Of a stretch of DNA of 64,000 nucleotides, positions 26,095-52,056 are shown one piece after another. The DNA is taken from NCBI GenBank assembly GCA_021325135.1, contig JAJPHT010000015.1:160001-224000 (forward strand). Reading direction: 5' to 3'. The position numbers and the translations under genes were made by a program. The notes beneath the pieces were generated by a model that was given only the letters and a program-made list of their open reading frames with translations, was not told where the DNA came from and searched no databases. The stretch's first letter is position 1, and every line of letters begins with the position of its first letter. This DNA comes from Pseudomonadota bacterium (GTDB lineage: Archaea; Thermoplasmatota; SW-10-69-26; JACQPN01; JAJPHT01).

Positions 26095-26197
26095 ATGAAG
26101 ACGGAAATCAGGGCCATCGGCTTCCGCCGGCCTTCGGGCCGTCGGGCCGATGGTCCTGGGAGAGCGCATGAAAAGCGAGATCAGGACCATCGGCTTC
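26095..26197 (+). repeat. Duplicated 5' end of the DUF99 gene with an internal inverted copy
   Basis: ATGAAGACGGAAATCAGGGCCATCGGCTTC (26095) vs ATGAAAAGCGAGATCAGGACCATCGGCTTC (26168); inverted GCCGATGGTCCTG at 26146-26158. Confidence 0.75.
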
Positions 26198-26713
26198 GAC
26201 GACGCCCCGTTCACGCGCCCCGACGGCCGCGTCCCCGTGGTGGGCGTCCACATGCGCGGCTCGACCCGCGTGGAGGGCATCCTGGCCACGGACGTGCTGC
26301 GCGACGGAGGCGACGCCACGGCCCGCGTCGCGCGCTGCGTCGCCGGGTCGGGCCTGCGCGGCACCAAGGCGATCCTCCTGGACGGGGCCTCCTTCGCGGG
26401 GTTCAACGTCGTGGACCTCGACGGGCTGGCGGAGGAGACGGGCGTCCCCTGCATCGCGTTCACCAAGGGCGTGCCGGACTACGCGGCCATCCGCGCCGCG
26501 CTGGCCAACGTGCCCGACCCCGAGGCCAAGTGGGCGCTCATCGAGCGGCGCCGCACCGCGACGCTCCCCACGGCGACCTCGCCCATCACCGTCTCGTGGG
26601 CAGGGGATGTGGACCAGGCGCGCGTTGCGGAGATCCTTGCTCTCACGACGGCCCACGGCCTCGTGCCCGAGCCGCTGCGCGTGGCGCACCTCGTGGCCAG
26701 CGTCATGCGCTAG
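26168..26713 (+). CDS. DUF99 family protein (endonuclease V-like fold)
   Basis: IGFDDAPF, DGGDAT, LLDGASFAGFNVVD, PEPLRVAHL. Confidence 0.88.
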   Translation: MKSEIRTIGFDDAPFTRPDGRVPVVGVHMRGSTRVEGILATDVLRDGGDATARVARCVAGSGLRGTKAILLDGASFAGFNVVDLDGLAEETGVPCIAFTKGVPDYAAIRAALANVPDPEAKWALIERRRTATLPTATSPITVSWAGDVDQARVAEILALTTAHGLVPEPLRVAHLVASVMR

Positions 26714-27296
26714 CGGGCGCCAGGGTGAGCGTGCCCTGCACCTTGAAGTCCACGCTGGAGAAGACCAGCGCGCCGCTGGGCGTCGGCGTGATGGCCAGGC
26801 TCCCGACGCTCAACGCGATGGCGCCGTCGGCGGGCAGCGCCTTCAGGTCGACGTCCAGCGTCATGGGGCTGGGCGCCGACTTGTAATCATTGCACTGGAA
26901 GCTCGCGGCGTCCCCCTTCTTGCCGGTGCAGACCGAGGCGTAGAACGTCATGCCGGGCTGCTGCGCGCCGTACTCGATCTTCACGACGACGCGCCTGGGC
27001 ACGCCCTTGGCGTCCACGACGTGGAAGCTCTCGGAGCCCGTCTGGGAGAACTGGCACTGGTCCGCGGGCGTGCCGTAGGAGCAGGCCCCCGTGGGCGACG
27101 TGCCGCTGTACGAGATGGGGACGGGCGGCGGAGCCACGGGCGCCGTCTCGTTGGGCGTCGCGTTCGCCAGGGGCGCCGCGGCGGGCGAGAGGGTGGCGGT
27201 CTCCTTCGTCGCGGGCGTGGGCGTGGAGCCCCCGAGGCAGCCGGCGCCAAGGGATGCGGAGAGAAGGATGAGCGCGAGCAGCCGGGCCTGGATCAC
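26703..27296 (-). CDS. Hypothetical lipoprotein
   Basis: GTG start, lipobox LGAGCLG, Pro/Thr linker, 4 further Cys. Confidence 0.7.
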   Translation of the reverse strand: MIQARLLALILLSASLGAGCLGGSTPTPATKETATLSPAAAPLANATPNETAPVAPPPVPISYSGTSPTGACSYGTPADQCQFSQTGSESFHVVDAKGVPRRVVVKIEYGAQQPGMTFYASVCTGKKGDAASFQCNDYKSAPSPMTLDVDLKALPADGAIALSVGSLAITPTPSGALVFSSVDFKVQGTLTLAPASA

Positions 27297-27436
27297 GGGG
27301 TTCCCCGGCGGCGCGAGGCCAGGACGGGTCTTCACGTTTGTGGATGGGTCGTGCTCCGGCGATCGTCCGGCTGGGGGCGCCCGCCTGGCCGGATGAACAA
27401 AAGCCGAAAGTGATATCACGATGGGGCCCGATCAAA

Positions 27437-27480
27437 GGGTGGCCGGGTCCACCCCCCCATCCCGTTTTTCCCGGCCTTTT
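27437..27480 (+). ncRNA. Candidate small RNA (C-rich loop hairpin plus T-tract); may be only a terminator
   Basis: Promoter-like CGAAAGTGATAT at 27405-27416; stem GGCCGGG/CCCGGCC, loop TCCACCCCCCCATCCCGTTTTT, then TTTT. Confidence 0.35.
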
Positions 27481-27487
27481 CATGCCG

Positions 27488-28564
27488 TTACTTGATGGAC
27501 GCCGCGAAGCCCGTCTCGCCCACGCGGCGCTTCAGCTCCACGATGACGTCCACGGGGGTGGGGTCCACGCTGCGCAGCGCGGCGAGGTAGACCGAGACGG
27601 CGTCCCCCGCGAGGCTGCTGGTGAGGAGGCGCTCGGGGAGCGTCTCGCCGCGGCTGTCGATCTGCACGACGCGCCCCCCCTTCTCCTGGATGAGGCGGCC
27701 GGTGAACGCGAAGCGCGCCTTGGCCTGCTCGTGCTCGCCCGCGTGGCGCAGGAAGACGGCGGTGAAGCGGTCGAGGTCCACGTCGCCGTCCCAGCCCACG
27801 AGCTCGTTGTGGTTCATCTCCGGCATGACGCCCCACCACGAGAGGACCTTGCCGTTCTCGTTGAGCTGGTTCGCGAAGCGGCGCGCGGCGGGGGCCAGGA
27901 CGCCCGACGCGTAGACGGCCGCGACGCTCTCCTGGAGCGCGAGGGCGATGCGCTTGGCCTCGTTCTTGGCCGCGGGCACGTCGGGCGCCACCTCGACGAC
28001 GGACTCGCGCAGCGTGCGCACGGTCCTCTCCAGCGCGCGGCGCGTGGGCAGGACGCCCAGGTGGTCCAGGAGCGCGGCGCAGGTGCCGAAATTCGCGGGC
28101 AGCGCGGCGCGGGGCATCATCTTCGCGCCCGAGATGCGCGCGAAGGGCGCGCCGTAGGACTTGGCGAGCTGCTCCAGGCGCGCGCCGGTGCTCACCGCGG
28201 CGAGCATGGCGCCCTGCTTGCGCGCCTGCGCGAAGGCGGCCAGCGTCTCCTCGGTGTTGCCGCTGTAGGAGACGGCCAGCACGAGCGTGTCCTTGTCGAC
28301 CCAGCGCGGAAGCTCGTAGGCCCGGGAGACGAGCACGGGCGCCTTGCCCTCCTCGTCGGCCCACGCCGCGAGGTAGTCCCCGCTGATGGCGCTGCCGCCC
28401 ATGCCCACGACGAGCACGCGCTGCGGCGCGCGGGGCAGGCTCCCCTCGAAGGTCTGCTGGAGCGCGGCGTCGAGCTGCTGGGGGTAGCTCAGCACGTGCC
28501 CCAGCATGTCCTCGCGGTCGGCCGCGCGCAGCGTCTCCTCGGGAATGTCCAGCATGTCGACCAT
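27488..28564 (-). CDS. Bifunctional phosphoglucose/phosphomannose isomerase (SIS fold)
   Basis: GMGGSAISGD, SYSGNTEET, PRAA, NENGK, PEMNHNE. Confidence 0.93.
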   Translation of the reverse strand: MVDMLDIPEETLRAADREDMLGHVLSYPQQLDAALQQTFEGSLPRAPQRVLVVGMGGSAISGDYLAAWADEEGKAPVLVSRAYELPRWVDKDTLVLAVSYSGNTEETLAAFAQARKQGAMLAAVSTGARLEQLAKSYGAPFARISGAKMMPRAALPANFGTCAALLDHLGVLPTRRALERTVRTLRESVVEVAPDVPAAKNEAKRIALALQESVAAVYASGVLAPAARRFANQLNENGKVLSWWGVMPEMNHNELVGWDGDVDLDRFTAVFLRHAGEHEQAKARFAFTGRLIQEKGGRVVQIDSRGETLPERLLTSSLAGDAVSVYLAALRSVDPTPVDVIVELKRRVGETGFAASIK

Positions 28565-28765
28565 CGGCCCCCACGCGGCGGCAAGGTCGTTAAGGTTTGG
28601 GGCTCGCGCCCCTTTCGGCGGGCCCTGCCGCGTCGCGCTATGCGCGCGCGGGCGCTGCGCAGCCCCGGCCCGCGGCGGGTCGGGAAGGCAGCACAGAGGC
28701 CCCGCCGCGGGCCGGCTCCAAAGGCTGATGCACGCCCAGTCCGTTGCGAGCGCGAGGCTGAACAC

Positions 28766-28978
28766 TTGCGCGTCCTCTTTGCTGCCCTGCTCGTGCTCGC
28801 GATCGCGACCTTCCTCGTGCCCCCGACGGCGCAGGCCACCGAGACGGTGACCGTCTGCTCCGAGTTCGAGCCCAACGGAGGCTGCGGCCTGGAGTACCTC
28901 TGCGTCAGCGCGTCGGGCGACGTGAACCTGGGCCCCCGCTGCATCCGCGACCCCTGCACGAACCCCAACGTCTGCTGA
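28766..28978 (+). CDS. Small secreted six-Cys protein (P6)
   Basis: TTG start; signal peptide ending AQA; C-x8-C-x5-C-x12-C-x4-C-x5-C. Confidence 0.7.
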   Translation: MRVLFAALLVLAIATFLVPPTAQATETVTVCSEFEPNGGCGLEYLCVSASGDVNLGPRCIRDPCTNPNVC

Positions 28979-29015
28979 GCAAGGCTCATGCCGGGGGGCC
29001 CGTCATGGGGCGGCG

Positions 29016-29663
29016 ATGCCCGGCCGCCTGACCCTCGGGCTCTACAACTCCTACGACCCGAGGCGCTTCCTGGAGGCCCACCGCCGCGCGCTGGTCCGCG
29101 CCGCGCCCCTGGCGCTGGCGTTCGACGCCAGCGTGGCGGCCTTCGGGTTCCCCTTCGCGGACCTCGCCGCGCACGGTGGGCGCACCTCGGAGAACCGCAG
29201 CCGCGGCTCCGAGGACAAGCGCGGCCAGGGGGAGCCCGTGGAGCTTCGCACGCCCGTGGAGATCGCCGAGTACGTCGCCGCGACGACCAGCGTGGCCGGC
29301 GCCAAGGGCGCGGAGGAGGGCGCCGAGCCCTTCGTCGCGCTGGCCCGCGCGGGGCGCTTCCACGTCTTCGACTTCCCCAAGAAGGGCTTCCCGCCGCAGC
29401 TTGGCGCGCTGGTCCTGGCCACCGAGCACGCGCAATGCCCCAAGGACACCAGCGCGCGGGCCATCGCGAGGGAGCTCGTGGACGGCCGCAGCCAGCTGGT
29501 CCTCTTCGGGCTCGGGCCCCACGGCACGCCTCCCGAGGTGCGCGAGGTCGCGCAGTGGGAGTTCGACGTGACCGGCGGCAACGTGGGGCTGGAGACCGCG
29601 ACGGCCATGGGCGCCGTGGCCGCCGCCATCGCCGCGCACCGCGAGATGCTCCAACCCCGCTAG
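29016..29663 (+). CDS. DUF531 family protein (predicted SPOUT methyltransferase)
   Basis: LTLGLYNSYD..EAHRRAL, GLGPHG, DVTGGNVGLETATAMG. Confidence 0.82.
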   Translation: MPGRLTLGLYNSYDPRRFLEAHRRALVRAAPLALAFDASVAAFGFPFADLAAHGGRTSENRSRGSEDKRGQGEPVELRTPVEIAEYVAATTSVAGAKGAEEGAEPFVALARAGRFHVFDFPKKGFPPQLGALVLATEHAQCPKDTSARAIARELVDGRSQLVLFGLGPHGTPPEVREVAQWEFDVTGGNVGLETATAMGAVAAAIAAHREMLQPR

Positions 29664-29725
29664 AAGAGGGCCTGCGTAGGCGCGTGGCTTATCTACCCCC
29701 GAGAGGCGTTGGGCGCCGGGAGACC

Positions 29726-32700
29726 TTGGCTGCCCCCTCGTACACGGAGGCGCTCGCCCGCGGGTCCACGGAGGCCCTCCTGAGCGTCACGCCCAGCGGC
29801 CGGGTCCTGACGTGGAGCCACGGCGCCGAGATGGCCTTCGGCTACCATCGCGACGAGGCCATCGGCCGGCTCCTCGTGGTCCTCGTGGCCTCCGCGGAGG
29901 ACGTCGAGCGCGTGCAGGCGGCGCTGCGCCAGGCCGCGACGGAGGGCTCCGCGACCTGCGACGGGCTGCGCCGCCGCAAGGACGGCTCGCGCTTCGCGTC
30001 GCCCATGCCGGTGCGCATCGTCCGCGAGGGCGACGGGCCGGGCCTCCAGCTCACCGTCTACGTGGGCCGCGAGGCCTCGGGCGACCTTCTCTCGGACCCC
30101 GAGCCGGGCGCCGCCGAGGCGCCCCTGGCGCCGCTGGAGGACCCGCTGCGCGAGCCCCTGGAGCGCGTCCGGGCCGAGCTGCGCGCCGACGCCGCCGCGG
30201 TCTACGTCTTCGCGCCCACCGGAGGGCTCGCCGTGCGCGCCACCGTGCGCGGCCCCGGCGCGCCAGCACCCCCCCTTCCCCGGCTCGAAGGCGAGGCGAC
30301 CGCGCCCAGCCCCGCCGAGGCCTACCGCTCGCAGATCGCCGTCACCGTCCGCGTGGGCGGCGCGCCCGCGGGCGTGCTCCAGGTCGCCTCGCGCGAGGCC
30401 CGCGTCTTCACGCCCGACGACGCCCGCGTCCTGGGCCTGGGCGCCGACCTCATCGGCTGGGCGCTGGAGCCGGGCCGCGGCCCCCTGGCCGGCATGGACC
30501 CCGCGATGGAGGCCGACCTTGCCGCGCTGCGAAGCGCGTGCGAGCGGGCGATGGAAGGCTCCCACGACCCCGGCGTCATGCTGGCCGCCATGGCGCGGGC
30601 TCTCGTGCCCCGCTTCGCGGACTGGTGCGCGGCCGACCTCGTGGAGCCCGCGGGCGGGCTGCGCCGCGTCGCGTTCGTCCACCGCGAGCCCTCCCGCGAG
30701 GCGACGGGCTACGAGGCCGCCTCGATCCCCGGCGCCAGCGCGCCGCTGGCCCCGCGGGACGCGGTGCGCGCGGCGCGCACCTTCGCGCGCCTCGCAGGCG
30801 AGGCCGAGCCCGAGCGCCGCCCCGAGGAGCGCCGCGCCCTGGCCGCGCTGGGCGACGCGTCGTGGATCGTCGTCCCCATCGCGGGGCGCGTGCGCGTCCT
30901 GGGCGCCCTGACCCTCGGGCAGGCCACCCCGGAGCGCGCCTTCGTGGACCGCGACGTGGCGTGGGTGCGCGACCTCGCGCGCCGCGCCGCGCTGGAGGTG
31001 GAGAACGCGCGCCTGCACGACATGGTGCAGCGCTCCCGCGAGCAGGCGGGGCGCGCCACCGTGCGCGGCAAGCTCCTCCAGGAGGTCGCGGCCTCGCTCT
31101 CCGAGGCGCTCACCCCCACCGAGGTCATCGAGACGGTGGTCGCGCGGGCGCGGGAGGGCCTGCGCGCCACGGGCGGCGCCCTCGCGGTGCTCACCGACGA
31201 CCGCGCGGCCTTCGAGATCGCGGGCACGGTGGGCGCCGCCGACGCGCTGCACAACGCGTGGCGCCGCTTCCCCGTCCACACGCGCGTCCCGCTGGCGGAC
31301 GCGGGCCGCTCCCGCGAGGTGGTGACCGTGGAGTCGGTCCCCGCCGGCATCGCGCGCTACCCCCACCTCGCGGGCGCCCACGAGAAGCTGGGCTCCCTCG
31401 TGGCCGTGCCCCTCGTCGTGGACGGCCGCACCGTGGGCGCCCTGGGCCTCGTCTTCGAGGAGAAGCGCGCCTTCGACGCGGACGACCTCTCCTTCCTGCG
31501 CACGCTGGCGCGCCAGTGCGGCGACGCCGTCGAGCGCACGCGCCTGCTCAACGCGGAGCGCAGCGCCCGCGCCGCGGCCGACAGCGAGGCGCGCCGCGCG
31601 GCGTTCCTCGCGGACGCCAGCCGCATCCTCTCCGCCTCCTTCGACTTCGAGAGCACGCTGGGCCAGACGGGCCGCATGCTCGTGCCGGTCTACGCGGACT
31701 GGTGCCTCATCCACCTGGCGGAGCCCGACGGCTCGCTGCGCGCCCTCGTCTCGGTCCACGGCGAGGGCGCGAAGCTCGCGGCCGTGGAGGAGCTTCGCTG
31801 GCTGCATCGCCTCGACCCCAACGGCGAGGCCGGCATCCCGCGCGTCGTGCGCACGGGGCGCCCCGAGATCCACTTCGAGGTGCCCGACTCGCTGGTGGAG
31901 CGCATGTGCGCGAGCCCCGAGGAGGCCGCGCTCATGCGCAAGGTGGGCGTCCGCTCGCAGATGATCGTGCCCATGGTCGCGCGCGGCCGCGTGCTGGGCG
32001 CCATCACGTTCCGCCAGTCGGGCATCCGCCGCTTCGGCATCAACGACGTGCCCCTCGCGGAGGAGCTGGCCATCCGCGCCGCCATCGCGGTGGACAACGC
32101 GCGCCTCTTCCGCGAGTCGCAGGAGGCGTTCCTGCGCCGCGAGGAGAGCCTGGCGCTCCTGGCGACGCTCCTCTCCAGCGCGCCCATCGGCATCGCGTTC
32201 TTCGACCGCGAGATGCGCGTCGCGCGCGTGAACGACGCGCTGAGGGCCGCCGGCGCGCCCGCCGACGCCGTGGGCCTCACGCTCGCCGAGGCGCTCCCCT
32301 TCCTCTCCGAGGAGACGCGGGAGCGCTTCCGCCAGGTCCTCGTCACGGGCGAGCCCGTCGTGGACCTGGAGGTGGCGGAGGCCTCCGACGGCCTCTTCCC
32401 GCGCCACTGGCTCGCGTCGTGCTATCCCGTGACGGCGCGCCCCGGCGACACGCTGGGCGTCGGCCTGCTCCTGGCGGACATCACCGCGCGCAAGCGGGCC
32501 GAGGAGGCCCTGCGGGAGAGCGAAGAACGATATCGCCTCCTCGTCGAGGGCGTCAAGGACCACGCCATCCTCAGCCTCGACCCCGAGGGGCGCATCATGA
32601 GCTGGAACGCGGCCGCGGAGAGGCTCCACGGCTACAAGGCGGAGGAGGTCGTGGGCAAGCCCTTCAGCGTCTTCCACCCCCCCGAGCTGGAGGGCGCCGC

Positions 32701-36327: not shown

Positions 36328-37533
36328 ATGCGCGCGGACGTCCCCCTCGGAGCCCTTCTCCTCGTGGCCCTCCTCTCGGCGGGCTGCATCGGCACGTTCA
36401 ACCACACGCTGGACGAGCACCCCGCGACCGTGGACGACGGCCACGGAGGCGGCCCCCTCCTCCCTCCGCCCCCCAAGCCCATGCTCAAGCCCACCGTGGC
36501 GCCCGTCGTCGCCCCCGCGCCGTGGGTCCTCAACGGCACGCAGGTGGAGATGCAGGCCGTCGCCCCCGCCGACGCCAAGGCGCCCCTCTCGTGGACGTGG
36601 GGCGTCGCCCCCCTCCTGGGCACGGCGCCCCTCGCGCAGAAGGCCACTGGCCTCGACACGGGCTCCAAGAAGCCCGACGACTACCTCTCCCCCGGCCAGA
36701 GCGCGTCGCTCACCTTCTCCCTCCCCGGCGTCTACCAGATGCACTGCCACCCGCACGCGAACTTCATGCGCGGCAACGTGACCGTCATCGACGGCCTGCC
36801 CGGCGCCAAGAATTTCGACGTCTACATCGAGGACGGCGCGACGTACAAGGACTTCCGCTTCGTCCCCGAGAACCTCACCGTCCCCGCGGGCTCCGTCGTC
36901 ACCTACCACAACGTGGGCAGCCAGGCCCACAGCGCGACCCTCCTCTCCCAGGACCCTGGCCTCGTCCCGCAGCCCGTCACCGGCAGCAAGGGCACCGTCA
37001 CCCTCACGGGCAACGGCTGGACGCGCGTCATCGCCATCCTCCACGACGCGGAAGGCCGCATCGGCCAGGCCGAGTGGCCCGTCTACGTCGCGCCCTACCC
37101 CGAGGACTACCAGAAGACGTTCTACCAGAACTTCAGCGCCGGAGCCCCCGCACAGCTGGACGCCGCGCCCGTCTCCGTCGCGCCGGGCGGCACGCTCTCG
37201 TTCAAGACGGACTACAACGGCACCGCGTTCGTGAACGTCACCTTCCTCGACCCGCCCTCCCAGCAGGCGCTCCCCGCCGCCGACCCCGCCAACGCCTGCG
37301 CGGGCGAGTTCCACCTCCGCGAACAGGGCTCCCAGACGGACCTGCTCACCGGCGCGCAAGGGCCCTCCCCCGCCGCCCACGGCCGCGTCCTCACCACGAC
37401 GTACAACCTCGTCGTCGTGCCGCGCCAGGGCGCCAGCTGCGAGGCCATCGTGCAGCTCCACGTGCTCTACGACCACGAGCCGCCAGCCCCGCTGGCCTAC
37501 GTGGACCCGGAGAGCGTTCCGCATCATCACTGA
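36328..37533 (+). CDS. Lipoprotein with a circularly permuted cupredoxin (type 1 Cu) domain
   Basis: Lipobox LSAGC; YQMHCHPHANFMRG precedes FVPENLTVPAGSVVTYHNVGSQAHSAT; C-terminal HHH. Confidence 0.8.
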   Translation: MRADVPLGALLLVALLSAGCIGTFNHTLDEHPATVDDGHGGGPLLPPPPKPMLKPTVAPVVAPAPWVLNGTQVEMQAVAPADAKAPLSWTWGVAPLLGTAPLAQKATGLDTGSKKPDDYLSPGQSASLTFSLPGVYQMHCHPHANFMRGNVTVIDGLPGAKNFDVYIEDGATYKDFRFVPENLTVPAGSVVTYHNVGSQAHSATLLSQDPGLVPQPVTGSKGTVTLTGNGWTRVIAILHDAEGRIGQAEWPVYVAPYPEDYQKTFYQNFSAGAPAQLDAAPVSVAPGGTLSFKTDYNGTAFVNVTFLDPPSQQALPAADPANACAGEFHLREQGSQTDLLTGAQGPSPAAHGRVLTTTYNLVVVPRQGASCEAIVQLHVLYDHEPPAPLAYVDPESVPHHH

Positions 37534-37536
37534 TAC

Positions 37537-37740
37537 GGCCCGCTCGCTTCGCTCGCGGACCGACTCGGCTGGGGGCCCTTCGGGCCCCCGGGGAGCGCCC
37601 CTTTTTTCGCAGAAATGCCCTTAGGGGCGCTCCGGCGCCGCCTTCGGCGGCGCCTGCGGCCCCTACAAGGCATCCGGCATTTCTGCGAAAAAACGGGCGC
37701 TCGGTGATGGCCCTCTGCGGGGGGCCGCGAGTGGTGGGCT
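37537..37740. repeat. Composite nested palindrome (REP-like or structured RNA)
   Basis: 27-bp arms at 37593-37619 and 37676-37702 (1 mismatch), several TTCG-capped hairpins, CGCTCGCTTCGCTCGC motif. Confidence 0.7.
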
Positions 37741-37825
37741 CTTCGTCGCGCGCGCGGGCGCCGCGGCGGGGGCCCTCGCTTCGGGTCCGCAAGGGCTTTC
37801 AATGAAACGAGGGCTGCGGCCGATC

Positions 37826-38143
37826 ATGTTCTGTCCCAACGACAAGGCGATGCTCAAGCCTGTGAACGGGGTGCTGACGTGCCCGAAATGCGGGTACACG
37901 AAGCAGGCCGTCGCGGGGCAGAACGTCGTGCGGAGCAAGGCCGTCGAGGACGTCCACAAGTCGGTCATGGACGACTCGGCGCAGAAGGTCAGCCTCCTGC
38001 CCACGACCAACGAGTACCAGTGCGAGAAGTGCGGCAACCACCTCGCGTACTACTACATGCGCCAGACGCGCAGCGCGGATGAGGCCACGACGCGCTTCCT
38101 GGAGTGCACCAAGTGTGGCCACAAGTGGAGGGAATACCGGTGA
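37826..38143 (+). CDS. tfs: Transcription factor S (TFS/RpoM family)
   Basis: Two Zn ribbons, QTRSADE acidic hairpin, CTKCGHKWREY. Confidence 0.95.
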   Translation: MFCPNDKAMLKPVNGVLTCPKCGYTKQAVAGQNVVRSKAVEDVHKSVMDDSAQKVSLLPTTNEYQCEKCGNHLAYYYMRQTRSADEATTRFLECTKCGHKWREYR

Positions 38144-38214
38144 GCGAAGCGAACCGGTTTCCCTACACTGAAGCCGGACCGCAGTCCGGCTGGAAGTGGA
38201 GGGAATACCGATAG
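38123..38214 (+). repeat. Duplicated 3' end of tfs with an internal inverted copy
   Basis: AAGTGGAGGGAATACCG at 38123-38139 and 38194-38210; inverted copy ACCGGTTTCCCTACACT at 38153-38169. Confidence 0.8.
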
Positions 38215-38633
38215 CGTCGCCCGAGCTTCGCCTCGCGGGGTCGGTGCTCCACCTTCCGGACACCGCGGGCGTCTTCGTGATCGCGTGCCGCTTCATGGGG
38301 ACCACCGCGCATCCCTTGGGCGCCGTGCTCTACGTGGGGGTCGCGGAGGACATGCGGCGCCGCGTGCTCTCGCTCCTCTCCGGGGGCAAGTCGGGGCTCC
38401 ACGCGCCGCTGCGCGAGCTGCACGAGGCCGGCGGCCAGGTGGACGTCCTCTACGTCGAGGTCAAGGGCGCGGGGAAGATGCCCGGGCTGGAGGCCGCCCT
38501 CGTGCAGGAGCACATGCACCGCTCCGGGACGAAGCCTGCGTGGAACCGCGGGCCCGCCCGCACGAAGCCCTCCCCCGAAGCCTTGGCGACGGCGGAGCAC
38601 ATCCTGGACGCGCTGCGCATCCTGCCGCGCTGA
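38196..38633 (+). CDS. GIY-YIG-like nuclease domain protein (start uncertain)
   Basis: LPDTAGVF..LYVGVAEDMRRRV..LE..KPAWN. Confidence 0.65.
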   Translation: MEGIPIASPELRLAGSVLHLPDTAGVFVIACRFMGTTAHPLGAVLYVGVAEDMRRRVLSLLSGGKSGLHAPLRELHEAGGQVDVLYVEVKGAGKMPGLEAALVQEHMHRSGTKPAWNRGPARTKPSPEALATAEHILDALRILPR

Positions 38634-45990: not shown

Positions 45991-46043
45991 TGGGCAAGCG
46001 CGCCCCCACAACCTTTTAGAACGCCCCGCCGGGCTCCGGGACC

Positions 46044-47753
46044 GTGCGCCCCCTCCTGCTGGCCCTCGCCGCGGCCCTCCTCACCCCGGCCCTCGCGGGC
46101 TGCCTCACGCCGGGGGGGACCACCGCGCCGTCCAACGCCTCGGCGCTCCTCTCGCCCATCCAGTTCCCGTCCATCAAGAAGGAGCAGGCGCTCGTCGCCA
46201 TGGCCGACGGCGTGAAGCTGGACAACTGGGTCTACCGCCCCGACGCGCCCGGGCAGTTCCCCGTCATCATCGAGAGCCGCCCCTACTTCGGCAACCTCGA
46301 TCCCCCGGCGCAGGAGGAGGGGCAGAAGTTCAGCAAGTGGCTCATCCACGAGTTCGTCCCCCGCGGCTACGTCGTCGTCCTGCACAGCGTCCGCGGCACG
46401 GGCGACTCGGGCGGCTGCTACGGCCAGGGCGGCATCACCGAGCAGAAGGACGAGGCCGCCACCGTGGAGGCGTTCGCCAAGATGCCCTACAGCGACGGCA
46501 AGGTGGGCATGATCGGCAAGTCCTACGGCGGGACCACGCCCTGGGAGGCCGCGGTGCAGGCGCCGCCGCACCTCGTGACCATCGTCCCCGTCTCGGGCAT
46601 CACCGAGTGGTACCTCTACGTCGCGAGCCACGGCGTGTGGTACGACTCGGGCACGCAGTTCAACGAGGAGTACCCCTTCACCATCAGCTTCCACGCCGAC
46701 CCCACCGGCGCGGACCCCAACGACCCCACCTCGTTCCTGCCGCCGCAGTCGCAGCTTTCCCACTACCCCGAGAAGGTCTGCCAGGACTTCGCGCAGGACG
46801 AGGCCGCCGGCGCCTCGGGCGCCAGCACCGGCGACGAGGACGCGTTCTGGCAGGAGCGCGACTACCAGACCGACGCGCAGATCGCCAAGATCGACAAGGC
46901 CAACGTCTCGGTCTACGTCGTCCACGGGCTCCAGGACTGGAACGTCAAGCCCGACAACGTCGTGGACGTCTACAACAAGCTCGCCGTGCCCAAGCACATG
47001 CAGCTTGGCCAGTGGGACCACCAGTATCCGCTGCGCAACGACTGGGGCACGGAGCTCCTGCGCTGGTTCGACTACTGGCTCAAGGGCGTGAAGAACGGCA
47101 TCATGGACGAGCCGCCCGTGAAGCTCATGGACAGCGCGGGCGTCTGGCACGACGAGATGGACTTCCCCGAGTCGCGCGCCGTGAACCTCACGCTGCATCC
47201 GGACGACAAGGGCGCCCTCGCCGAGTCCGCCCCCAAGGGCTCCATGACCTACGTCTCCAGCCCGGCCACCTCCGCCAACGACGCCGCGCCCGGCCAGGAC
47301 AAGCTCGTCTGGGCCGGCGCCGCGGAGGCCTCCACGCTGCGCGTCTCTGGCGCGCCGTGGCTCGCCTTCAACGCCACCATCACCGGGCCCAACGCGCAGT
47401 TCGTCGCGACGCTCTATGATATCAACGGCTCGACGTGGACCGCCATCAACTGGGCCCACCTCGACGCGCGGCACCGCGACGGCGCGGACAAGCCCTCCAC
47501 CTCGCCCCAGATGGGCGCGGGCTCGTTCCGCCTGCGCTTCTACCCCATGGACGCGGAGATCGCGCCGGGCCACAAGCTGGGCCTCACCCTCGCGGGCGCG
47601 GGCGGCTTCGCGGCGCCGGGCCAAGGCACCACGGCGCAGGTGGAGGTCGAGACGGGCACCGCCGCGCTGACGCTCCCCACGCTCCCCTCCATCGCGCCCG
47701 AGTCTCCGCAGCCCACCATGGCGAAGGCCGCGGACCTGGGCTGGACGAGCTGA
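46044..47753 (+). CDS. CocE/NonD / X-Pro dipeptidyl-peptidase (S15) lipoprotein
   Basis: Lipobox LAGC, VRGTGDSGGC, GKSYGG, HGLQDWNVKP, GQWDH. Confidence 0.9.
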   Translation: MRPLLLALAAALLTPALAGCLTPGGTTAPSNASALLSPIQFPSIKKEQALVAMADGVKLDNWVYRPDAPGQFPVIIESRPYFGNLDPPAQEEGQKFSKWLIHEFVPRGYVVVLHSVRGTGDSGGCYGQGGITEQKDEAATVEAFAKMPYSDGKVGMIGKSYGGTTPWEAAVQAPPHLVTIVPVSGITEWYLYVASHGVWYDSGTQFNEEYPFTISFHADPTGADPNDPTSFLPPQSQLSHYPEKVCQDFAQDEAAGASGASTGDEDAFWQERDYQTDAQIAKIDKANVSVYVVHGLQDWNVKPDNVVDVYNKLAVPKHMQLGQWDHQYPLRNDWGTELLRWFDYWLKGVKNGIMDEPPVKLMDSAGVWHDEMDFPESRAVNLTLHPDDKGALAESAPKGSMTYVSSPATSANDAAPGQDKLVWAGAAEASTLRVSGAPWLAFNATITGPNAQFVATLYDINGSTWTAINWAHLDARHRDGADKPSTSPQMGAGSFRLRFYPMDAEIAPGHKLGLTLAGAGGFAAPGQGTTAQVEVETGTAALTLPTLPSIAPESPQPTMAKAADLGWTS

Positions 47754-47761
47754 GGGCATGC

Positions 47762-49126
47762 ATGCGTCGCGCGCTGGCCCTCCTCCTCGTCGCGCTGACG
47801 CTGGGCTGCGCTGCGCCCGCCGCGCGCCACGAGGCGGAGGCGCCCGTCGTCGCGGCCCGCGCGCCCGATCCGACCCCGGCAAGCCCGACCCCGGAGGCGC
47901 CCACGCCTGCGCCCCAGCCCGCGGCGCCCCCCGCGCCGGAGGCGCCCGCGTTCCGCCGCCACGTCTCGCCCGCCGGCAAGGCGGACGACGCGGGCGAGCC
48001 CTCCCTCGGCGTCGACCCGCGCAACGGCGCCGTGCTCTACCAGGCGAACCTGGAGACGTTCCGCGTGGACCTGGCCAACGACTCGTGGACCTCCGTGGCG
48101 CCGCTCACGACGACGCTTCACAGCGAGGACCCCATCCTGGCGGTCGATCCGTTCACCGGGCGCGTGTACGTCTCGCAGCTCATGGCGGACTGCAGCATCC
48201 TCGCGTGGAGCGACGACGACGGCGCGACGTGGACCACGAACCCGCTGGGCTGCGGCGCGGGCACCGGCTTCGACCACCAGACCGTGGGCGGCGGCCCCTT
48301 CGCCGCGGGCGTGACGCCCCTGGGCGGCGCCAAGGACGCGCTCTACTACTGCTCCCACGACACCGTGACGACCTCCTGCGCCGCGTCGCGCGACGGCGGG
48401 CTCACCTTCCTGCCCGCGGTCCCCGTGAACACGGCCGCCACGTGCGACGTCACGGGGCCGGGCCACGTCCGGGTGGGGCGCGACGGCACGGTCTACCTCC
48501 CGGAGCGCGCGTGCCACGGCAGCCAGGACCAGGGCTTCGCCCTCTCCACCGACGGCGGCGTGACGTGGACGCAGCGCTTCCTCGCGGGCGTCGGCAGCCA
48601 GGGGGAGAGCGACGCCAGCCTCGCGCTGGACGCGACGGACAAGATCTACTTCTGCTTCGAGGGCGGAGACGGGCACGCGGGCGTCGCCACCACGGTCGAC
48701 CGCGGCAAGACGTGGTCCAAGCCCGTCGACCTGGGCGCGCCCTTCGGGCTCCAGAACACGCAGTTCGAGGTCGCCGTCGCGGGCGCCGCCGGCAAGGCCG
48801 CGTGCGCGTTCCTGGGCACGCCCACGCCGGGAGACGACCAGGCCGCCGAGTTCAACGGCACGTGGCGCCTCTACGTCGCGTTCACCTGGGACGGAGGCGC
48901 CAACTGGACCACCCTCGACGCGACGCCCGACGACGTCGTGCAGCAGGGCTGCATCTACCTCTTCGGCAACTTCGGCCCGCCCTGCCGCAACCTCTACGAC
49001 TTCATGGACGCCGCCGTGCTCCCCGACGGGCGCGTGCTGGTGGGCTACGCCGACGGCGACGTGGACGGCCGGCAGGCGACGAAGGGCGTCATCGCCGAGC
49101 AGGTCGCGGGACCCGGGCTGCGGTGA
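47762..49126 (+). CDS. BNR/Asp-box (sialidase-like) lipoprotein, paralog of 3722-5188
   Basis: Lipobox TLGC; SDDDGATW, SRDGGLTF, STDGGVTW, TWDGGANW. Confidence 0.82.
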   Translation: MRRALALLLVALTLGCAAPAARHEAEAPVVAARAPDPTPASPTPEAPTPAPQPAAPPAPEAPAFRRHVSPAGKADDAGEPSLGVDPRNGAVLYQANLETFRVDLANDSWTSVAPLTTTLHSEDPILAVDPFTGRVYVSQLMADCSILAWSDDDGATWTTNPLGCGAGTGFDHQTVGGGPFAAGVTPLGGAKDALYYCSHDTVTTSCAASRDGGLTFLPAVPVNTAATCDVTGPGHVRVGRDGTVYLPERACHGSQDQGFALSTDGGVTWTQRFLAGVGSQGESDASLALDATDKIYFCFEGGDGHAGVATTVDRGKTWSKPVDLGAPFGLQNTQFEVAVAGAAGKAACAFLGTPTPGDDQAAEFNGTWRLYVAFTWDGGANWTTLDATPDDVVQQGCIYLFGNFGPPCRNLYDFMDAAVLPDGRVLVGYADGDVDGRQATKGVIAEQVAGPGLR

Positions 49127-49257
49127 GCGCCTCCCCGTTTCCTTCTCGTCACGTCTTGACGCGACGAGAAGGACGACACGCCCGCCCCCCGTGACCCCCC
49201 GCGTCCGCCAGCCCCTTCTCCAAACCTTAAGACGGGATGGGGCGCCTCCCCGGCCTC

Positions 49258-50190
49258 ATGCACGCCGAGGCGGAGTCCCCCTGCACCGTGGGCAACTTCG
49301 GCCCCGGCTTCGACGTGCTCAGCCTCGCCCTCGCCCGGCGCGGCGACAAGGTGTGGGTCCGCACGGCGGAGGCCGACAAGGTCACGGTGCGCGGGCCCGG
49401 CCACGAGCGCGTCCCCACCGAGTGGGCGCGCAACTCCGCCTGCGCGAGCCTCGACCACCTGCGCAAGCTCACCGGCCGCGCCGAGCCGCTGGAGGTCGTC
49501 ATCGAGAAGGGCATGCCCCCCGGCAGCGGCCTCGGCAGCAGCGCGTCCTCCAACGCCAGCGCGGTGCGCGCGTTCGCCCGCCTATGGGGTGTCGCGCTCT
49601 CGCCCTTGCAGGCGCTGGAGGCCGCCGCCGCGGGCGAGGCCGTCGCCACGGGGAGCGCGCACACGGACGACGTGGCCGCCGCGCTCTTCGGCGGGCTCAC
49701 CGTGGTGGGCGGGAAGGGCCCGGACGCCGTGATCCGGCTGCGCCCTCCCCCTCTGCATCTCGTCGTCGCGCGCCCCGAGGTCGACCTCCCCACGCGGGAG
49801 ATGCGCCGCCTCATCCCGGACGCGCTGCCCAAGGCCGCCGTCGTGGGCAACCTGAGCAACGTCGCGCGCATCGTGCACGCCTGCCACCGCGGCGACGCGG
49901 CCATGCTCTGCCGCGCGCTGGAGGACGGCATCTCGCGCCCCTACCGCGCGCCCCGCGTCCCCCTCTTCGAGGAGGCGCGCCAGGCGGCCCTCGCGCAGGG
50001 CGCCGAGGCCTTTTTGCTATCTGGGTCGGGCCCCGCCATGATCGCGGCGATGCCCGCCGAGAAGGACCCCCGCGCCGTGGAGAGCGCCATGCGCGACGTC
50101 TTCGTCAAGGCCGCGCTGGACGCCGAGGTGTTCACGACGCAGCCGCTCCCGGAGGTGAAGGACCCTGCGATTCCGCTGCATCCGCTGTGA
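49258..50190 (+). CDS. thrB: Homoserine kinase
   Basis: GNFGPGFD, PPGSGLGSSAS, SGSGP; start placed ~30 nt after TATA-like CCTTAAG. Confidence 0.92.
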   Translation: MHAEAESPCTVGNFGPGFDVLSLALARRGDKVWVRTAEADKVTVRGPGHERVPTEWARNSACASLDHLRKLTGRAEPLEVVIEKGMPPGSGLGSSASSNASAVRAFARLWGVALSPLQALEAAAAGEAVATGSAHTDDVAAALFGGLTVVGGKGPDAVIRLRPPPLHLVVARPEVDLPTREMRRLIPDALPKAAVVGNLSNVARIVHACHRGDAAMLCRALEDGISRPYRAPRVPLFEEARQAALAQGAEAFLLSGSGPAMIAAMPAEKDPRAVESAMRDVFVKAALDAEVFTTQPLPEVKDPAIPLHPL

Positions 50191-51322
50191 CCGCGACTAT
50201 CCCCTCGCGCAGGTGCGCTACCGCTGCGAGTGCGGCGGCCTCCTGGAGGTCGAGGCGGACTGGCGCTGGCGCCCCACGGAGGCGCGCGGCCTGTGGCGAT
50301 ATCGTTCCCTCCTCCCCACGCTGGACGAGGCGCCGCCCGTCACGCTCCAGGAGGGGGGAACGCCCCTCGTGAGGTGCGAGCGCCTCGCGGCGTGGGCCGG
50401 CGTGCGCGAGCTGAGCGTCAAGGTCGAGGGCGCGAACCCCACGGGCTCCTTCAAGGACCGCGGCATGACGGTGGGCGTCACCCTCGCGCGCAGCCTCGGC
50501 ATGAAGGCCCTCGCGTGCGCGAGCACGGGCAACACCAGCGCGTCCCTCGCAGCGTATGGCGCGCGGGCCGGGCTCCCCGTGAGCGTCCTCGTCCCCGCGG
50601 GCAAGATCGCGGCCGGCAAGATGGCGCAGGCCCTCGCCTTCGGCGCCAAGGTGATCGAGGTGGAGGGCGGCTTCGACGAGGCCATGTCCCTGGTGGAGCA
50701 GCTTTCCGCCGACGGCCACGTCTACCTCCTGAACTCCCTCAACCCGCTGCGCCTTGAAGGGCAGAAGACGCTCCTCTTCGAGGTGCTGGAGGCGGCCTCG
50801 CCCGACCGCGTCGTCTTCCCCGTGGGCAACGGCGGCAACGTCAGCGCCGCGCACAAGGCCATCCGCGAGGCCAACGCCACGGGCCTCTCCCGCGCGACGC
50901 CCATGCTCACCGGCGTCCAGGCCGAGGGCGCGGCGCCCCTCGCCTCCGGAAGCTATCACCCTGTGGACAAGGCCGAGACGCTGGCCACCGCCATCCGCAT
51001 CGGGCGCCCGGTCAACGCCGACAAGGCCCTGCGCGCCGTGAAGGAGACGGGCGGCGCGTTCGCCAAGGTCAGCGACGCGGAGATCTTCGACGCGCAGCGC
51101 CGCCTCGCGCGGGAGGAGGGGCTCTTCGTCGAGCCCGCCAGCGCGGCGCCCCTTGCGGGCCTTCGCAGGCTCGTGGAGTCCGGCGTCGTGGACCGCTCCG
51201 AGAGCGTGGTGCTCGTCGCGACGGGGAACGGCATGAAGGACCCCGACGTGGTGTCGCGCTACGCGTCCCCTCCGTTGCGGACGAAGGCCGATCTTCCCTC
51301 TCTTCTGAAGGTGCTATCGTGA
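50165..51322 (+). CDS. thrC: Threonine synthase (probable CTG start)
   Basis: NPTGSFKDRG, ASTGNTSAS, EGQKT, PVGNGGN, VEPASA; N-terminal CIRC..CEC ribbon is reachable only from CTG 50165. Confidence 0.93.
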   Translation: MRFRCIRCDRDYPLAQVRYRCECGGLLEVEADWRWRPTEARGLWRYRSLLPTLDEAPPVTLQEGGTPLVRCERLAAWAGVRELSVKVEGANPTGSFKDRGMTVGVTLARSLGMKALACASTGNTSASLAAYGARAGLPVSVLVPAGKIAAGKMAQALAFGAKVIEVEGGFDEAMSLVEQLSADGHVYLLNSLNPLRLEGQKTLLFEVLEAASPDRVVFPVGNGGNVSAAHKAIREANATGLSRATPMLTGVQAEGAAPLASGSYHPVDKAETLATAIRIGRPVNADKALRAVKETGGAFAKVSDAEIFDAQRRLAREEGLFVEPASAAPLAGLRRLVESGVVDRSESVVLVATGNGMKDPDVVSRYASPPLRTKADLPSLLKVLS

Positions 51323-51329
51323 TCGACAA

Positions 51330-51429
51330 GGGTCCAAAGAACGCGACGAGCGCCACGAGCGCAAAGGACGCGACGACGGGAAACATCGCGACCTTGGCGC
51401 TCTTCGCGCTCGTCGCGTTCTTTGGACCC
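51330..51429. repeat. Perfect 24-bp inverted repeat element inside the thr operon
   Basis: GGGTCCAAAGAACGCGACGAGCGC (51330-51353) and its reverse complement (51406-51429); internal 9-nt periodicity. Confidence 0.8.
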
Positions 51430-51452
51430 CTGGCCAGGGAGGTGACGTTCAG

Positions 51453-51950
51453 GTGAAGCTCGACATCCTCGTGGAACTCCGGGACTCTCCAGGCCAGCTC
51501 AGCCAGGCCCTCGCCACCGTGAGCCGCTTCGGAGGCAACGTCATCAGCGTCCTCCACGAGCACGGCAAGCGTCGCGGCGACTGGGTCCCCGTGCGCATCG
51601 TGCTGGAGATCCCCAAGGAGGGGGAGGAGCCGCTGGTCAACGCGCTCAAGGCCGAAAGCCGCGTCGTCTCCGTGGGCGGCGCCAGCGCGACGATCCCCTT
51701 CGCGTTCCTCCTCCTGGGGCACGTCTTCGAGTCGCACGTGCAGGAGATCACCGACGCCGTCTTCGCCGCGGGCGCCGAGGTGCGCCGCTTCAGCGCGGAG
51801 ATCGCGAGCCGCGAGGCGCCCAGCGCGGCCCTGGTGGAGATCGCGGCGGGCAACGCCGAGACGCTCCAGGCCGCCCGCGAGCGCGTGCAGGAGATGGCGC
51901 GCGCCAAGGGGCTTCTCATGATCGAGGCCCTGGGGGGCGCTCCCGAATGA
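51453..51950 (+). CDS. ACT-domain protein (homoserine dehydrogenase-associated, COG2061-like)
   Basis: ELRDSPGQL..GGNVISVLH, LLGHV; immediately upstream of hom. Confidence 0.85.
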   Translation: MKLDILVELRDSPGQLSQALATVSRFGGNVISVLHEHGKRRGDWVPVRIVLEIPKEGEEPLVNALKAESRVVSVGGASATIPFAFLLLGHVFESHVQEITDAVFAAGAEVRRFSAEIASREAPSAALVEIAAGNAETLQAARERVQEMARAKGLLMIEALGGAPE

Positions 51951-52056
51951 GCCGCATCCTGCTCGCTTCGGCCGAAGCCTCTCCTCGCGGCCTTGCGGCC
52001 GCTCGTCGGGATCGGCCTCGCTCGGAGGATGCGTCATGAGCCGCATCCTCCTCGCT
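51947..52056 (+). repeat. Duplicated 5' end of hom with an internal inverted copy; creates a 30-codon linker ORF (51947-52039)
   Basis: ATGAGCCGCATCCTGCTCGCT (51947) vs ATGAGCCGCATCCTCCTCGCT (52036); inverted GAGGATGCG at 52025-52033. Confidence 0.8.

What the first reader, a model, noticed from the sequence alone, without database searches (positions are those of the whole stretch)
26095..52056. Recurrent 'copy - hairpin cap - inverted copy - copy' micro-triplications of gene termini
Seen at three unrelated loci (26095-26197, 38123-38214, 51947-52056): a 17-30 nt piece of local gene sequence occurs twice in direct orientation 71-89 nt apart, with a reverse-complement copy between them. The joins use recurring caps: TCGCTTCGCTC/GAGCGAAGCGA and GG(C/A)C-TTCG/TTGC/CGCA-G(G/T)CC. 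The same caps occur in the composite palindrome at 37537-37740. The stems are locus-specific and only the caps are shared, so this is not an ordinary MITE with a target-site duplication. Established: REP/REPIN elements are linked to HUH (RAYT) transposases, and template switching can produce inverted triplications. Inference: an enzyme-driven hairpin-capping or fold-back copying process that generates palindromes from host DNA; survivors lie at gene ends where the reading frame is kept.
Basis: partly seen in the sequence, partly recalled or inferred. Interest (0 to 1): 0.78.

Follow-up and report, generated by a model that had tools for sequence, protein, structure and literature searches.

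The report
Hairpin cassettes triplicating archaeal gene ends
At three gene boundaries of an uncultured high-GC soil archaeon, a 50-70-base hairpin-rich insert writes the end of a gene forwards, backwards and forwards again, so that both neighbouring genes stay intact. The same layout recurs across the genome and in sister species, and I found no description of such a copy-back process in prokaryotes.

Summary
All three loci carry target copy A1, a hairpin, an inverted target copy A', a loop or hairpin, and a second target copy A2. Each inverted copy is unlikely by chance (p about 6e-4, 2e-4 and 0.01).

Relatives show these are insertions.
- The ACT/hom junction is a bare ATGA overlap in four relatives.
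- The TFS-end cassette is shared with two other species of the genus, so it is not an assembly artefact.
- Its three copies changed together across species.

- The spacer at locus 3 is a 48-nt module with 7 copies in this genome, plus copies in two sister species.
- In 10 of 11 copies the layout and polarity are the same: target, module, inverted target, loop, target.
- The "composite palindrome" is a 149-nt repeat present three times.

Cap loops (GAA/TTC, CGCA/TGCG) are 3-15-fold enriched at hairpin centres. I found no HUH/RAYT, reverse transcriptase, TnpB or Cas1 gene. A Ku plus LigD-type polymerase pair is present.

Best reading, about 50%: a 3' end carrying an ultra-stable hairpin primes on itself, copies the target backwards, then rejoins upstream. 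Only hits at gene or tRNA ends survive.

This scan had already noted the same layout elsewhere in this genome and in DPANN and CPR genomes.

The parts
26095..26124 (+). Locus 1, A1: spare upstream copy of the first 30 nt of the Endo_dU (DUF99) gene
   Evidence: Matches A2 at 25/30. Absent upstream of the orthologous gene in G001, G002 and G003.
26125..26145 (+). Locus 1, X: GC hairpin, 9-bp stem with one mismatch and a TTCG loop
26146..26158 (+). Locus 1, A': inverted copy, 13/13 complementary to 26182-26194
   Evidence: p = 0.0006 against random windows.
26168..26197 (+). Locus 1, A2: the true start of the Endo_dU gene
   Evidence: Pfam PF01949, E = 1.9e-47.
38123..38143 (+). Locus 2, A1: last codons and TGA stop of the TFS gene
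   Evidence: Pfam Zn_ribbon_TFIIS.
38142..38152 (+). Locus 2, X: 11-nt cap holding the GCGAAGC mini-hairpin
   Evidence: The same 11-mer caps other local hairpins and sits behind two tRNAs.
38153..38169 (+). Locus 2, A': imperfect inverted copy of A (16 matches, 1 mismatch, 1 gap)
   Evidence: p = 0.0002. Conserved in G002 and recognisable in G004.
38170..38192 (+). Locus 2, Y: 6-bp hairpin with a CGCA loop; this slot is replaced by another hairpin in G002
   Evidence: 12/32 identity against 50/51 for A1+X+A'.
38194..38214 (+). Locus 2, A2: second copy, holding the GTG start (38196) of the downstream 145-aa ORF
   Evidence: the ORF is conserved in G002.
51947..51967 (+). Locus 3, A1: copy of the hom start; its ATGA overlaps the ACT-gene stop
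51970..52017 (+). Locus 3, module M: 48-nt stem, internal loop, stem; 7 copies in the genome
52024..52037 (+). Locus 3, A': inverted copy (10/10 plus 4 after a 2-nt deletion), abutting A2 with no loop and containing a GGAGG motif
   Evidence: p = 0.011.
52036..52056 (+). Locus 3, A2: the true start of homoserine dehydrogenase
   Evidence: Pfam PF00742, E = 3e-59.
51947..52039 (+). Relay mini-ORF of 30 codons. Its ATG overlaps the ACT stop and its TGA overlaps the hom ATG.
37537..37561 (+). Locus-specific cap hairpin (complement of the 11-nt cap) at the left edge of the composite palindrome
37555..37703 (+). 149-nt multi-hairpin repeat present three times in the genome. It is not host-derived.
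   Evidence: No Rfam match.

Best explanation
The three loci are scars of one kind of event, a micro-scale inverted triplication made by hairpin-primed copy-back.

Proposed steps (all inferred from anatomy, none observed):
1. A DNA 3' end lying at the edge of the target A comes to end in a very stable hairpin. The end could be a stalled nascent strand, or a broken end under repair. The hairpin is either a GNA-type mini-hairpin cap or the 48-nt module M.
2. The paired 3'-OH of that hairpin primes on its own strand and copies the target backwards, giving A'. The copy is of variable length and error-prone.
3. The end then returns to, or is rejoined with, the original duplex upstream of where it left. 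The target is therefore present a second time (A2).

Shown here:
- Hits survive only where the duplication leaves an intact copy on each side, that is at gene starts, stops, overlaps and tRNA 3' ends.
- Older cassettes are maintained. Their three copies change in concert, and their loops act as slots where other hairpin repeats replace each other.

Likely consequences (inferred): overlapping genes become uncoupled, stem-loops form on gene ends, and at locus 3 a relay ORF plus a GGAGG motif lie in front of hom.
For: Anatomy of the three loci.

They are insertions relative to relatives:
- The ACT/hom junction is a plain ATGA or GTGA overlap in G003, G007 and G011, and adjacent TGA-ATG in G006.
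- The locus 1 copies are absent in G001-G003.

They are not artefacts, and they are heritable:
- The locus 2 cassette is significant in G000, G002 and G004, and not in G001, G003 or G007.
- The tree places G003 basal, so the cassette predates the split of the other four species.

Concerted change: A1, A' and A2 all carry the AGGGAA version in G000 and G002; in G004 A1 and A2 carry the CGCGAG version and A' keeps only its first half (GCGC).

Conservation between G000 and G002 at locus 2: A1+X+A' 50/51, neighbouring coding sequence 84%, Y slot 12/32.

Module M has a fixed polarity. In 10 of 11 copies from three species, A1 ends 1-7 nt before M (23 nt in one copy) and the inverted copy lies between M and A2.

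Other points:
- Target repeats run from 15 to 55 nt, which does not suggest a fixed staggered cut.
- A' is less faithful than the direct pair: 44 mismatches and 16 gaps against 25 and 1.
- The A'/A2 join at locus 3 has no loop and sits on the palindrome TCATGA.
- Cap loops are enriched at inverted-repeat centres.
- GCGNAGC and CCGAAGG mini-hairpins melt at 70-76 C and resist exonucleases (PMC13037366).
- The same 17-nt hairpin lies in opposite orientation in two copies of the 149-nt repeat. Spacer inversion is a hallmark of template switching (PMC5453318).
- Ku and a LigD-type primase-polymerase are encoded side by side.
Against: - The caps and M are foreign to the ancestral sequence. A plain local template switch does not supply them, and how a 3' end acquires them is unknown.
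- In primate data, switch events whose return point lies upstream of the exit point were never seen (PMC5453318). That is the class needed here.
- The strict polarity of M and its conserved pyrimidine-rich internal loop look like recognition by a specific factor.
- No within-species empty or filled allele was obtained for these three loci.
- Loci 1 and 3 rest on a single assembly.
- The lower fidelity of A' could equally reflect later selection against long perfect palindromes.
Confidence: 0.5

Rival explanations
1. Module M and the caps are non-autonomous mobile elements of the REP or MITE type. A trans-acting enzyme not yet identified cuts the target with a stagger and joins the hairpin, and the inverted copy is a by-product of that enzyme's hairpin chemistry. 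Candidates are a nuclease carried by the genome's other palindromic repeats, or a gene missing from the assembly.
For: - M is multicopy, about 90% identical or better, has a fixed polarity and a conserved internal loop, and occurs at different loci in three species.
- The short flanks next to M are constant: YC before it and T(C/G) after it.
- Earlier notes from this scan (e1-5622060, not tested here) report a small nuclease gene inside another palindrome family of this genome.
Against: - No Y1 HUH transposase, Rep, relaxase, reverse transcriptase, TnpB or Cas1 was found.
- No split or gene-bearing copy of M exists.
- The duplication length varies 15-55 nt.
- Loci 1 and 2 have no multicopy element, only 11-23-nt caps.
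Confidence: 0.25
2. The direct repeats are attL/attR cores left by tyrosine-recombinase integration at gene or tRNA 3' ends. The elements later shrank to a few dozen bases.
For: - Copies of tRNA and gene 3' ends flanking an insert are the classic signature of integrative elements.
- Five tRNA ends carry such hairpins: three cassettes in G000 (C3, C46, C42), one in G002 (L036), and the cap alone behind two further tRNAs.
- A later check of a similar tRNA-linked case in this scan (e1-2845420) favoured a recombinase.
Against: - The targets share no common core.
- They include a gene start and ATGA overlaps between protein genes.
- The inserts are 41-110 nt with no integrase nearby.
- An inverted target copy of 12-46 nt, and the polar position of M, are not explained.
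Confidence: 0.07
3. Ordinary tandem duplications of gene ends were later shaped by point mutation and selection into RNA stem-loops, such as 3'-end stabilisers or start-site switches. No special copying process is involved.
For: - The locus 2 hairpin is conserved and co-varies.
- G004 has plain tandem duplications of the same Endo_dU gene start.
- Locus 3 shows a relay ORF and a GGAGG motif.
Against: - Exact inverted runs of 10-13 nt, and up to 46 nt elsewhere, cannot plausibly arise base by base.
- The same foreign module occurs at 7 loci.
- M is antisense to the flanking gene in 5 of 7 copies, so a strand-specific RNA role is unlikely.
Confidence: 0.1
4. The structures are assembly or amplification chimeras of a metagenome-assembled genome.
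For: Inverted chimeras are known artefacts of strand-displacement amplification (own knowledge). Loci 1 and 3 are seen in one assembly only.
Against: - The locus 2 cassette recurs in independent assemblies of two other species.
- M cassettes occur in three species.
- Reading frames, stops and starts are preserved at every locus.
Confidence: 0.03

Closest known systems
Short-range template-switch mutations (Ripley model; four-point model, PMC5453318; creation of RNA hairpins, PMC8794818)
   Same: A nearby sequence is copied in reverse complement in one event, which creates or perfects hairpins. Spacer inversion occurs, as seen here in the 149-nt repeat.
   Different: Here the return point lies upstream of the exit point, so the target is also duplicated directly. 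That class was not observed in primates. In addition, foreign hairpin modules sit at the joins.
Inverted triplications: ODIRA in yeast (PMC10766183) and DUP-TRP/INV-DUP in humans (PMC11293582)
   Same: The order is direct, inverted, direct. Short inverted repeats or hairpins sit at the junctions, and a hairpin-capped intermediate has been proposed.
   Different: Those span kilobases to megabases, use pre-existing inverted repeats, and in ODIRA require an origin inside the unit. Here the units are 15-55 nt, lie at gene ends, and carry recurring imported caps.
REP/REPIN elements with RAYT transposases (PMC2817692)
   Same: Small GC-rich multicopy extragenic hairpins that differ between species and lie at gene ends.
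   Different: No RAYT was found. REPs carry no target duplication and no inverted target copy. Most stems here are unique to their locus.
E. coli tRNA-linked repeats (PMC8144298)
   Same: A short insert behind a tRNA or rRNA gene ends in an 18-19-bp copy of that gene's 3' end. Its origin is unknown.
   Different: No inverted copy of the gene end is described for them. The units are 100-180 nt. They are not reported at protein-gene overlaps.
Mycobacterial interspersed repetitive units, MIRU (as summarised in PMC3184786)
   Same: GC-rich inserts between genes of an operon, whose small ORF overlaps the stop and start of the flanking genes. The locus 3 relay ORF does the same.
   Different: MIRUs are tandem minisatellites flanked by 4-nt direct repeats, with no inverted target copy.
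P-nucleotides and transposon excision footprints from off-centre opening of hairpin-capped ends (V(D)J, hAT elements; own knowledge)
   Same: Loop-less palindromic additions derived from the flanking DNA, as at the A'/A2 join of locus 3.
   Different: Those are usually 1-15 nt, in eukaryotes, and made by known transposase-type enzymes.

Membership tests
REP/REPIN-RAYT | A RAYT (Y1 HUH transposase) gene in the genome | tested here: not met
   PF01797 gave no match in G000 (94% complete), while the control genomes gave matches.
REP/REPIN-RAYT | Many near-identical palindromes with no target duplication | tested here: not met
   Only M (7 copies) and the 149-nt repeat (3 copies) are multicopy. 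All M copies are flanked by 15-55-nt target repeats.
MITE | Terminal inverted repeats matching an IS, plus a fixed-length target-site duplication | tested here: not met
   Repeat length varies 15-55 nt. No split or gene-bearing copy was found.
Template-switch mutation (four-point model) | A fragment copied in reverse complement from the immediate neighbourhood | tested here: met
   A' matches the local target at all three loci.
Template-switch mutation (four-point model) | All new sequence is derived from the local template | tested here: not met
   M and the caps are absent from the empty junction in G003 and recur at other loci.
Inverted triplication (ODIRA, DUP-TRP/INV-DUP) | Direct, inverted, direct order of one segment | tested here: met
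Inverted triplication (ODIRA, DUP-TRP/INV-DUP) | Pre-existing inverted repeats at the junctions, and for ODIRA a replication origin inside the unit | tested here: not met
   The ancestral ATGA junction has no inverted repeat. Units of 15-55 nt cannot hold an origin.
Integrative-element att duplication (tyrosine recombinase) | An integrase gene at or near the insert, and a shared core sequence among the sites | tested here: not met
   The inserts are 41-110 nt and lie between intact genes. The targets are unrelated to each other. I did not search the genome for integrases elsewhere.
CRISPR-type off-target spacer integration or casposon | A Cas1-family integrase | tested here: not met
   PF01867 gave no match, while the control genomes gave matches.
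Retroelement (target-primed reverse transcription) | A reverse transcriptase gene | tested here: not met
   PF00078 gave no match.
Known RNA family | An Rfam covariance-model match | tested here: not met
   No match in the whole window at gathering score, nor in 37450-38300 at E <= 1.
Mini-hairpin DNA (GCGNAGC or CCGAAGG type) | A GNA triloop closed by two G-C pairs | tested here: met
   Locus 2 cap on the + strand, locus 1 cap on the - strand, and a GCGCAGC cap in G004. The motif definition is from PMC13037366. Stability in vivo was not tested.

The most novel reading that the evidence does not exclude
The 48-nt module and the mini-hairpin caps form a protein-less, or at least transposase-less, class of mobile DNA. 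These would be 'selfish hairpins' that spread because a strand ending in them primes on itself. Each insertion builds its stem from the target and duplicates the target. The same process would operate in distant lineages, since this scan noted like cassettes in DPANN and CPR genomes. It would be a regular source of new gene-end stem-loops, uncoupled gene overlaps and relay ORFs.
Probability: 0.25. Interest if true: 0.85.

Novelty: new variant of a known kind. Interest (0 to 1): 0.62.

Why it matters
If the reading holds, prokaryotic genomes have a mutational or mobile process that no annotation tool looks for.
- It makes locus-specific hairpins in one step and separates overlapping genes without breaking them.
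- It leaves tRNA and gene ends duplicated, which mimics integrase att sites.
- It would explain where some gene-end stem-loops come from.
- It offers a possible origin for tRNA-linked repeats.
- It gives a concrete, testable role in genome change to ultra-stable DNA mini-hairpins.
- It would be a prokaryotic counterpart of the inverted triplications studied in yeast and in human disease, but a thousand times smaller and fixed in natural populations.

Tried and rejected
- The one metagenome scan, with a 21-nt junction word, returned only an unrelated chance match.
- Counting the 11-nt cap against the tool's reversed-pattern control was uninformative, because the reversed word holds the same GCGAAGC core (19 against 15).
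- RNAalifold on nine M copies was spoiled by misalignment, so I make no covariation claim from it.
- Exact 9- or 11-mer triple scans miss even the three window loci. The alternating-order excess was small: 85 clusters against 134 non-alternating, where 67 would be expected.
- I considered a bulge-helix-bulge archaeal intron and dropped it. The 3' splice site would have to lie in A2 while only A' can pair with A1.
- Cas1 off-target integration, reverse transcription, TnpB and HUH enzymes were dropped because no gene was found. Viral_Rep and Rep_1 had no positive control.
- My by-eye reading that G001, G002 and G004 keep remnants of the locus 3 triplication did not pass a shuffle test, and I withdrew it. 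The same holds for locus 2 remnants in G001.


Full report
**Context.** The window is C15:160001-224000 of a 3.77-Mb assembly in 51 contigs with 71.6% GC. Earlier notes of this scan call it a soil Thermoplasmatota archaeon. The window does encode archaeal TFS and PCNA. The genes at the three loci are:
- Locus 1: an Endo_dU/DUF99 gene, divergent from an Hpt gene.
- Locus 2: TFS, followed by a 145-aa ORF with no Pfam family.
- Locus 3: an ACT-domain gene, followed by homoserine dehydrogenase.

I call the duplicated target A1 and A2, the inverted copy A', and the two joins X and Y. Coordinates come from the rulers.
- Locus 1: A1 26095-26124, X 26125-26145 (GC hairpin with TTCG loop), A' 26146-26158, Y 26159-26167, A2 26168-26197.
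- Locus 2: A1 38123-38143 (includes the TFS stop), X 38142-38152 (11-nt cap around GCGAAGC), A' 38153-38169, Y 38170-38192 (hairpin with CGCA loop), A2 38194-38214 (includes the GTG start at 38196).
- Locus 3: A1 51947-51967, a 48-nt module 51970-52017, A' 52024-52037, A2 52036-52056.

An inverted match as good as the observed one occurs in 0.06%, 0.02% and 1.1% of random windows of equal length. Among the 15 short-range direct repeats of the window, these three have the three highest inverted-copy scores. As single strands, loci 1 and 2 fold far better than shuffles (z -3.8 to -5.6). Locus 3 does so only weakly (z -1.6 to -2.4).

**They are insertions, and at least one is old.**
- In G003, G007 and G011 the ACT stop and the hom start overlap directly as ATGA or GTGA; in G006 the TGA stop directly abuts the ATG. 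The 89 extra bases in G000 are therefore derived.
- The locus 1 copies are absent upstream of the orthologous gene in G001, G002 and G003.
- The locus 2 cassette is significant in G000, G002 (A' p = 0.001) and G004 (A' p = 0.0055, A2 p = 0.0035). It is not significant in G001, G003 or G007.
- A four-protein tree gives ((G004,G001),(G000,G002)) with G003 basal, at 0.745 support. The cassette therefore predates the split of those four species and has decayed or been overwritten in G001.
- Independent assemblies of three species rule out an artefact for this locus.

**The old cassette is maintained.** Between G000 and G002:

| Segment | Identity |
|---|---|
| TFS coding sequence | 83.7% |
| A1+X+A' | 50/51 |
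| Y | 12/32 (a different hairpin) |
| A2 | 22/23 |
| Downstream gene | 64% |

The synonymous version of the last TFS codons differs between lineages, and the copies follow it. G000 and G002 carry AGGGAA in A1 and A2 and its complement in A'. In G004, A1 and A2 carry CGCGAG, and A' retains only the first half of that version (GCGC); the rest of A' has diverged. This means either gene conversion or template switching among the copies, or selection for pairing.

**Not only the caps are shared.**
- The locus 3 spacer is a 48-nt module, M. It has an outer 6-bp stem, a conserved pyrimidine-rich internal loop, a variable but always perfectly paired inner 6-bp stem, and a variable 3-4-nt loop.
- G000 has seven copies, on C3, C15, C17, C18, C23, C33 and C42. 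G002 has at least three and G003 has one.
- Oriented on M, 10 of 11 copies show the same layout: A1 ends 1-7 nt before M in nine of the ten (23 nt in the C17 copy), and the inverted copy lies between M and A2. By eye the eleventh copy, C42, fits too.
- If M dropped at random into either loop in either orientation, one polarity class in 10 of 10 would have p of about 0.002.
- Where only one side is a gene or tRNA end, it is A2, and the gene is usually antisense to M. That argues against a strand-specific RNA role for M.
- No split or gene-bearing copy of M exists.
- The composite palindrome is also not host-derived. Positions 37555-37703 are a 149-nt repeat with three copies at about 98% identity. 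Only its left-hand cap hairpin (37537-37561) is local.
- In two of the three copies, the same 17-nt hairpin lies in opposite orientation.

**Caps.** Among perfect inverted repeats with stems of 7 or more, four loops are over-represented relative to loops of 2-3-bp stems.

| Loop | Observed | Expected |
|---|---|---|
| CGCA | 56 | 6.0 |
| TGCG | 48 | 5.9 |
| TTC | 40 | 8.6 |
| GAA | 23 | 8.0 |

For stems of 9 or more, TTC and GAA reach 11-15-fold. GCGNAGC and CCGAAGG are the "mini-hairpin DNA" motifs. [quoted passage not shown] The locus 2 cap has this motif on the + strand and the locus 1 cap on the - strand. G004 has GCGCAGC at the homologous join. The 11-nt cap also caps other local hairpins and sits 0-3 nt behind tRNA-Pro and tRNA-Arg.

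**Census.**
- A direct-repeat scan with an inverted-copy test finds an excess over flanking controls only at high scores: score 30 or more, 8 against 1; score 26 or more, 13 against 7.6.
- After inspection I accept about 15 cassettes.
- Fourteen of the 15 lie at a stop, a start, a gene overlap or a tRNA 3' end.
- Part of this bias must be survival and detectability. Copies under selection stay recognisable.
- A1 and A2 are more alike (331 matches, 25 mismatches, 1 gap) than A' is to A (328, 44, 16).
- Two cassettes with identical A1 and A2 (36/36 and 17/17) already carry A'. The inverted copy is therefore not a late addition.

**Enzymes.** No Y1 HUH transposase/RAYT, reverse transcriptase, TnpB or Cas1 was found, and controls rang in the reference genomes. 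No Viral_Rep, Rep_1 or relaxase was found either, though the first two had no positive control. The genome does encode Ku next to a stand-alone LigD-type primase-polymerase. Ku occurs in 11 of the 21 genomes sampled from this class and in none of the 20 from other classes of the phylum. This is a lead, not evidence.

**Mechanism (inferred).**
- Every A-hairpin-A' unit is what a strand ending in a hairpin would make by priming on itself.
- The variable length of A, the indel-rich A', the loop-less A'/A2 join on the palindrome TCATGA at locus 3, and the hairpin inversion in the 149-nt repeat all fit polymerase copy-back and return. They do not fit a fixed staggered cut.
- Two settings are possible. 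One is a stalled nascent strand at a fork. The other is a broken end filled in and joined by Ku and the LigD-type polymerase, with nuclease-resistant hairpin fragments captured at the join.
- The weak points are how the foreign hairpins reach the 3' end, and why M has a strict polarity. Both leave room for a dedicated factor, which is the first rival.
- In primates, switch events that return upstream of the exit point were never observed (PMC5453318). So this is not the ordinary process.

**Consequences visible in the sequence.**
- At locus 3 the insert creates a 30-codon ORF. Its ATG overlaps the ACT stop and its TGA overlaps the hom ATG. A' places GGAGG 7-12 nt before that ATG.
- At locus 2 the ancestral 20-nt overlap of TFS with the next ORF is resolved into two separate ends.
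- The same junctions hold unrelated nonamer-periodic palindromes in G001, G002 and G004. I could not show target copies there. Whether these are hot spots or old slots with turnover is open.

**Prior notes and literature.**
- This scan had already described the layout at other places in this genome (e1-5614273, e1-5622178, e1-5614202, e1-5614400). It had also described it in DPANN, CPR and other small genomes (e1-2855198, e1-2845420, e1-1060000).
- One of those cases was later judged more likely a recombinase site. I treat that as a rival. I find it weak here, because the targets are unrelated protein-gene ends and an inverted copy is present.
- My literature searches found template-switch hairpins, large inverted triplications, REP/RAYT, MIRU and tRNA-linked repeats. 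None describes micro inverted triplications with recurring hairpin modules at prokaryotic gene ends.

Noticed in passing
window 37555-37703 (also G000 C37 about 760-910 and C42 about 76570-76720): A 149-nt multi-hairpin repeat with three copies at about 98% identity. It has T-runs on both arms and no Rfam match. Its left-hand 17-nt hairpin is inverted between two of the copies. It could be a MITE or a small-RNA gene.
   Followed up: partly
G000 C27 about 95.4-97.1 kb (L040:368-2022): Ku and a stand-alone LigD-type primase-polymerase are encoded side by side, giving an NHEJ kit that is uncommon in archaea. Ku was found in 11 of 21 sampled genomes of this class and 0 of 20 elsewhere in the phylum.
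   Followed up: partly
L023:1980-2480 (G004, orthologue of the locus 1 gene): Two plain tandem duplications (116 and 236 nt) of the promoter-proximal region and 5' end of the Endo_dU gene, with no inverted copy. The same gene start is therefore duplicated independently in another species.
   Followed up: partly
L002, L003, L004 (ACT/hom junction); L021 (upstream of Endo_dU); L013 (upstream of TFS); L015 (behind TFS): In G001, G002 and G004 the same gene junctions are filled by different species-specific palindromes built from 9-nt periodic units. The junctions are either hot spots or long-lived slots with turnover.
   Followed up: partly
window 51947-52039: A 30-codon relay ORF whose start overlaps the ACT stop and whose stop overlaps the hom start, both as ATGA. 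This resembles the ORFs of mycobacterial MIRUs.
   Followed up: yes
G000 C9:17560-17570 and C15:244759-244769 (L043, L044): The 11-nt cap of locus 2 lies 0-3 nt behind the 3' ends of tRNA-Pro and tRNA-Arg.
   Followed up: partly
window 18324-18380: A perfect 15-nt direct repeat with a 42-nt period and no inverted copy.
   Followed up: no
window 26056-26886: The spare ATG of locus 1 (26095) opens a 264-codon frame that runs out of frame across the whole Endo_dU gene. If the transcript starts upstream of it, this ATG would compete with the true start.
   Followed up: no
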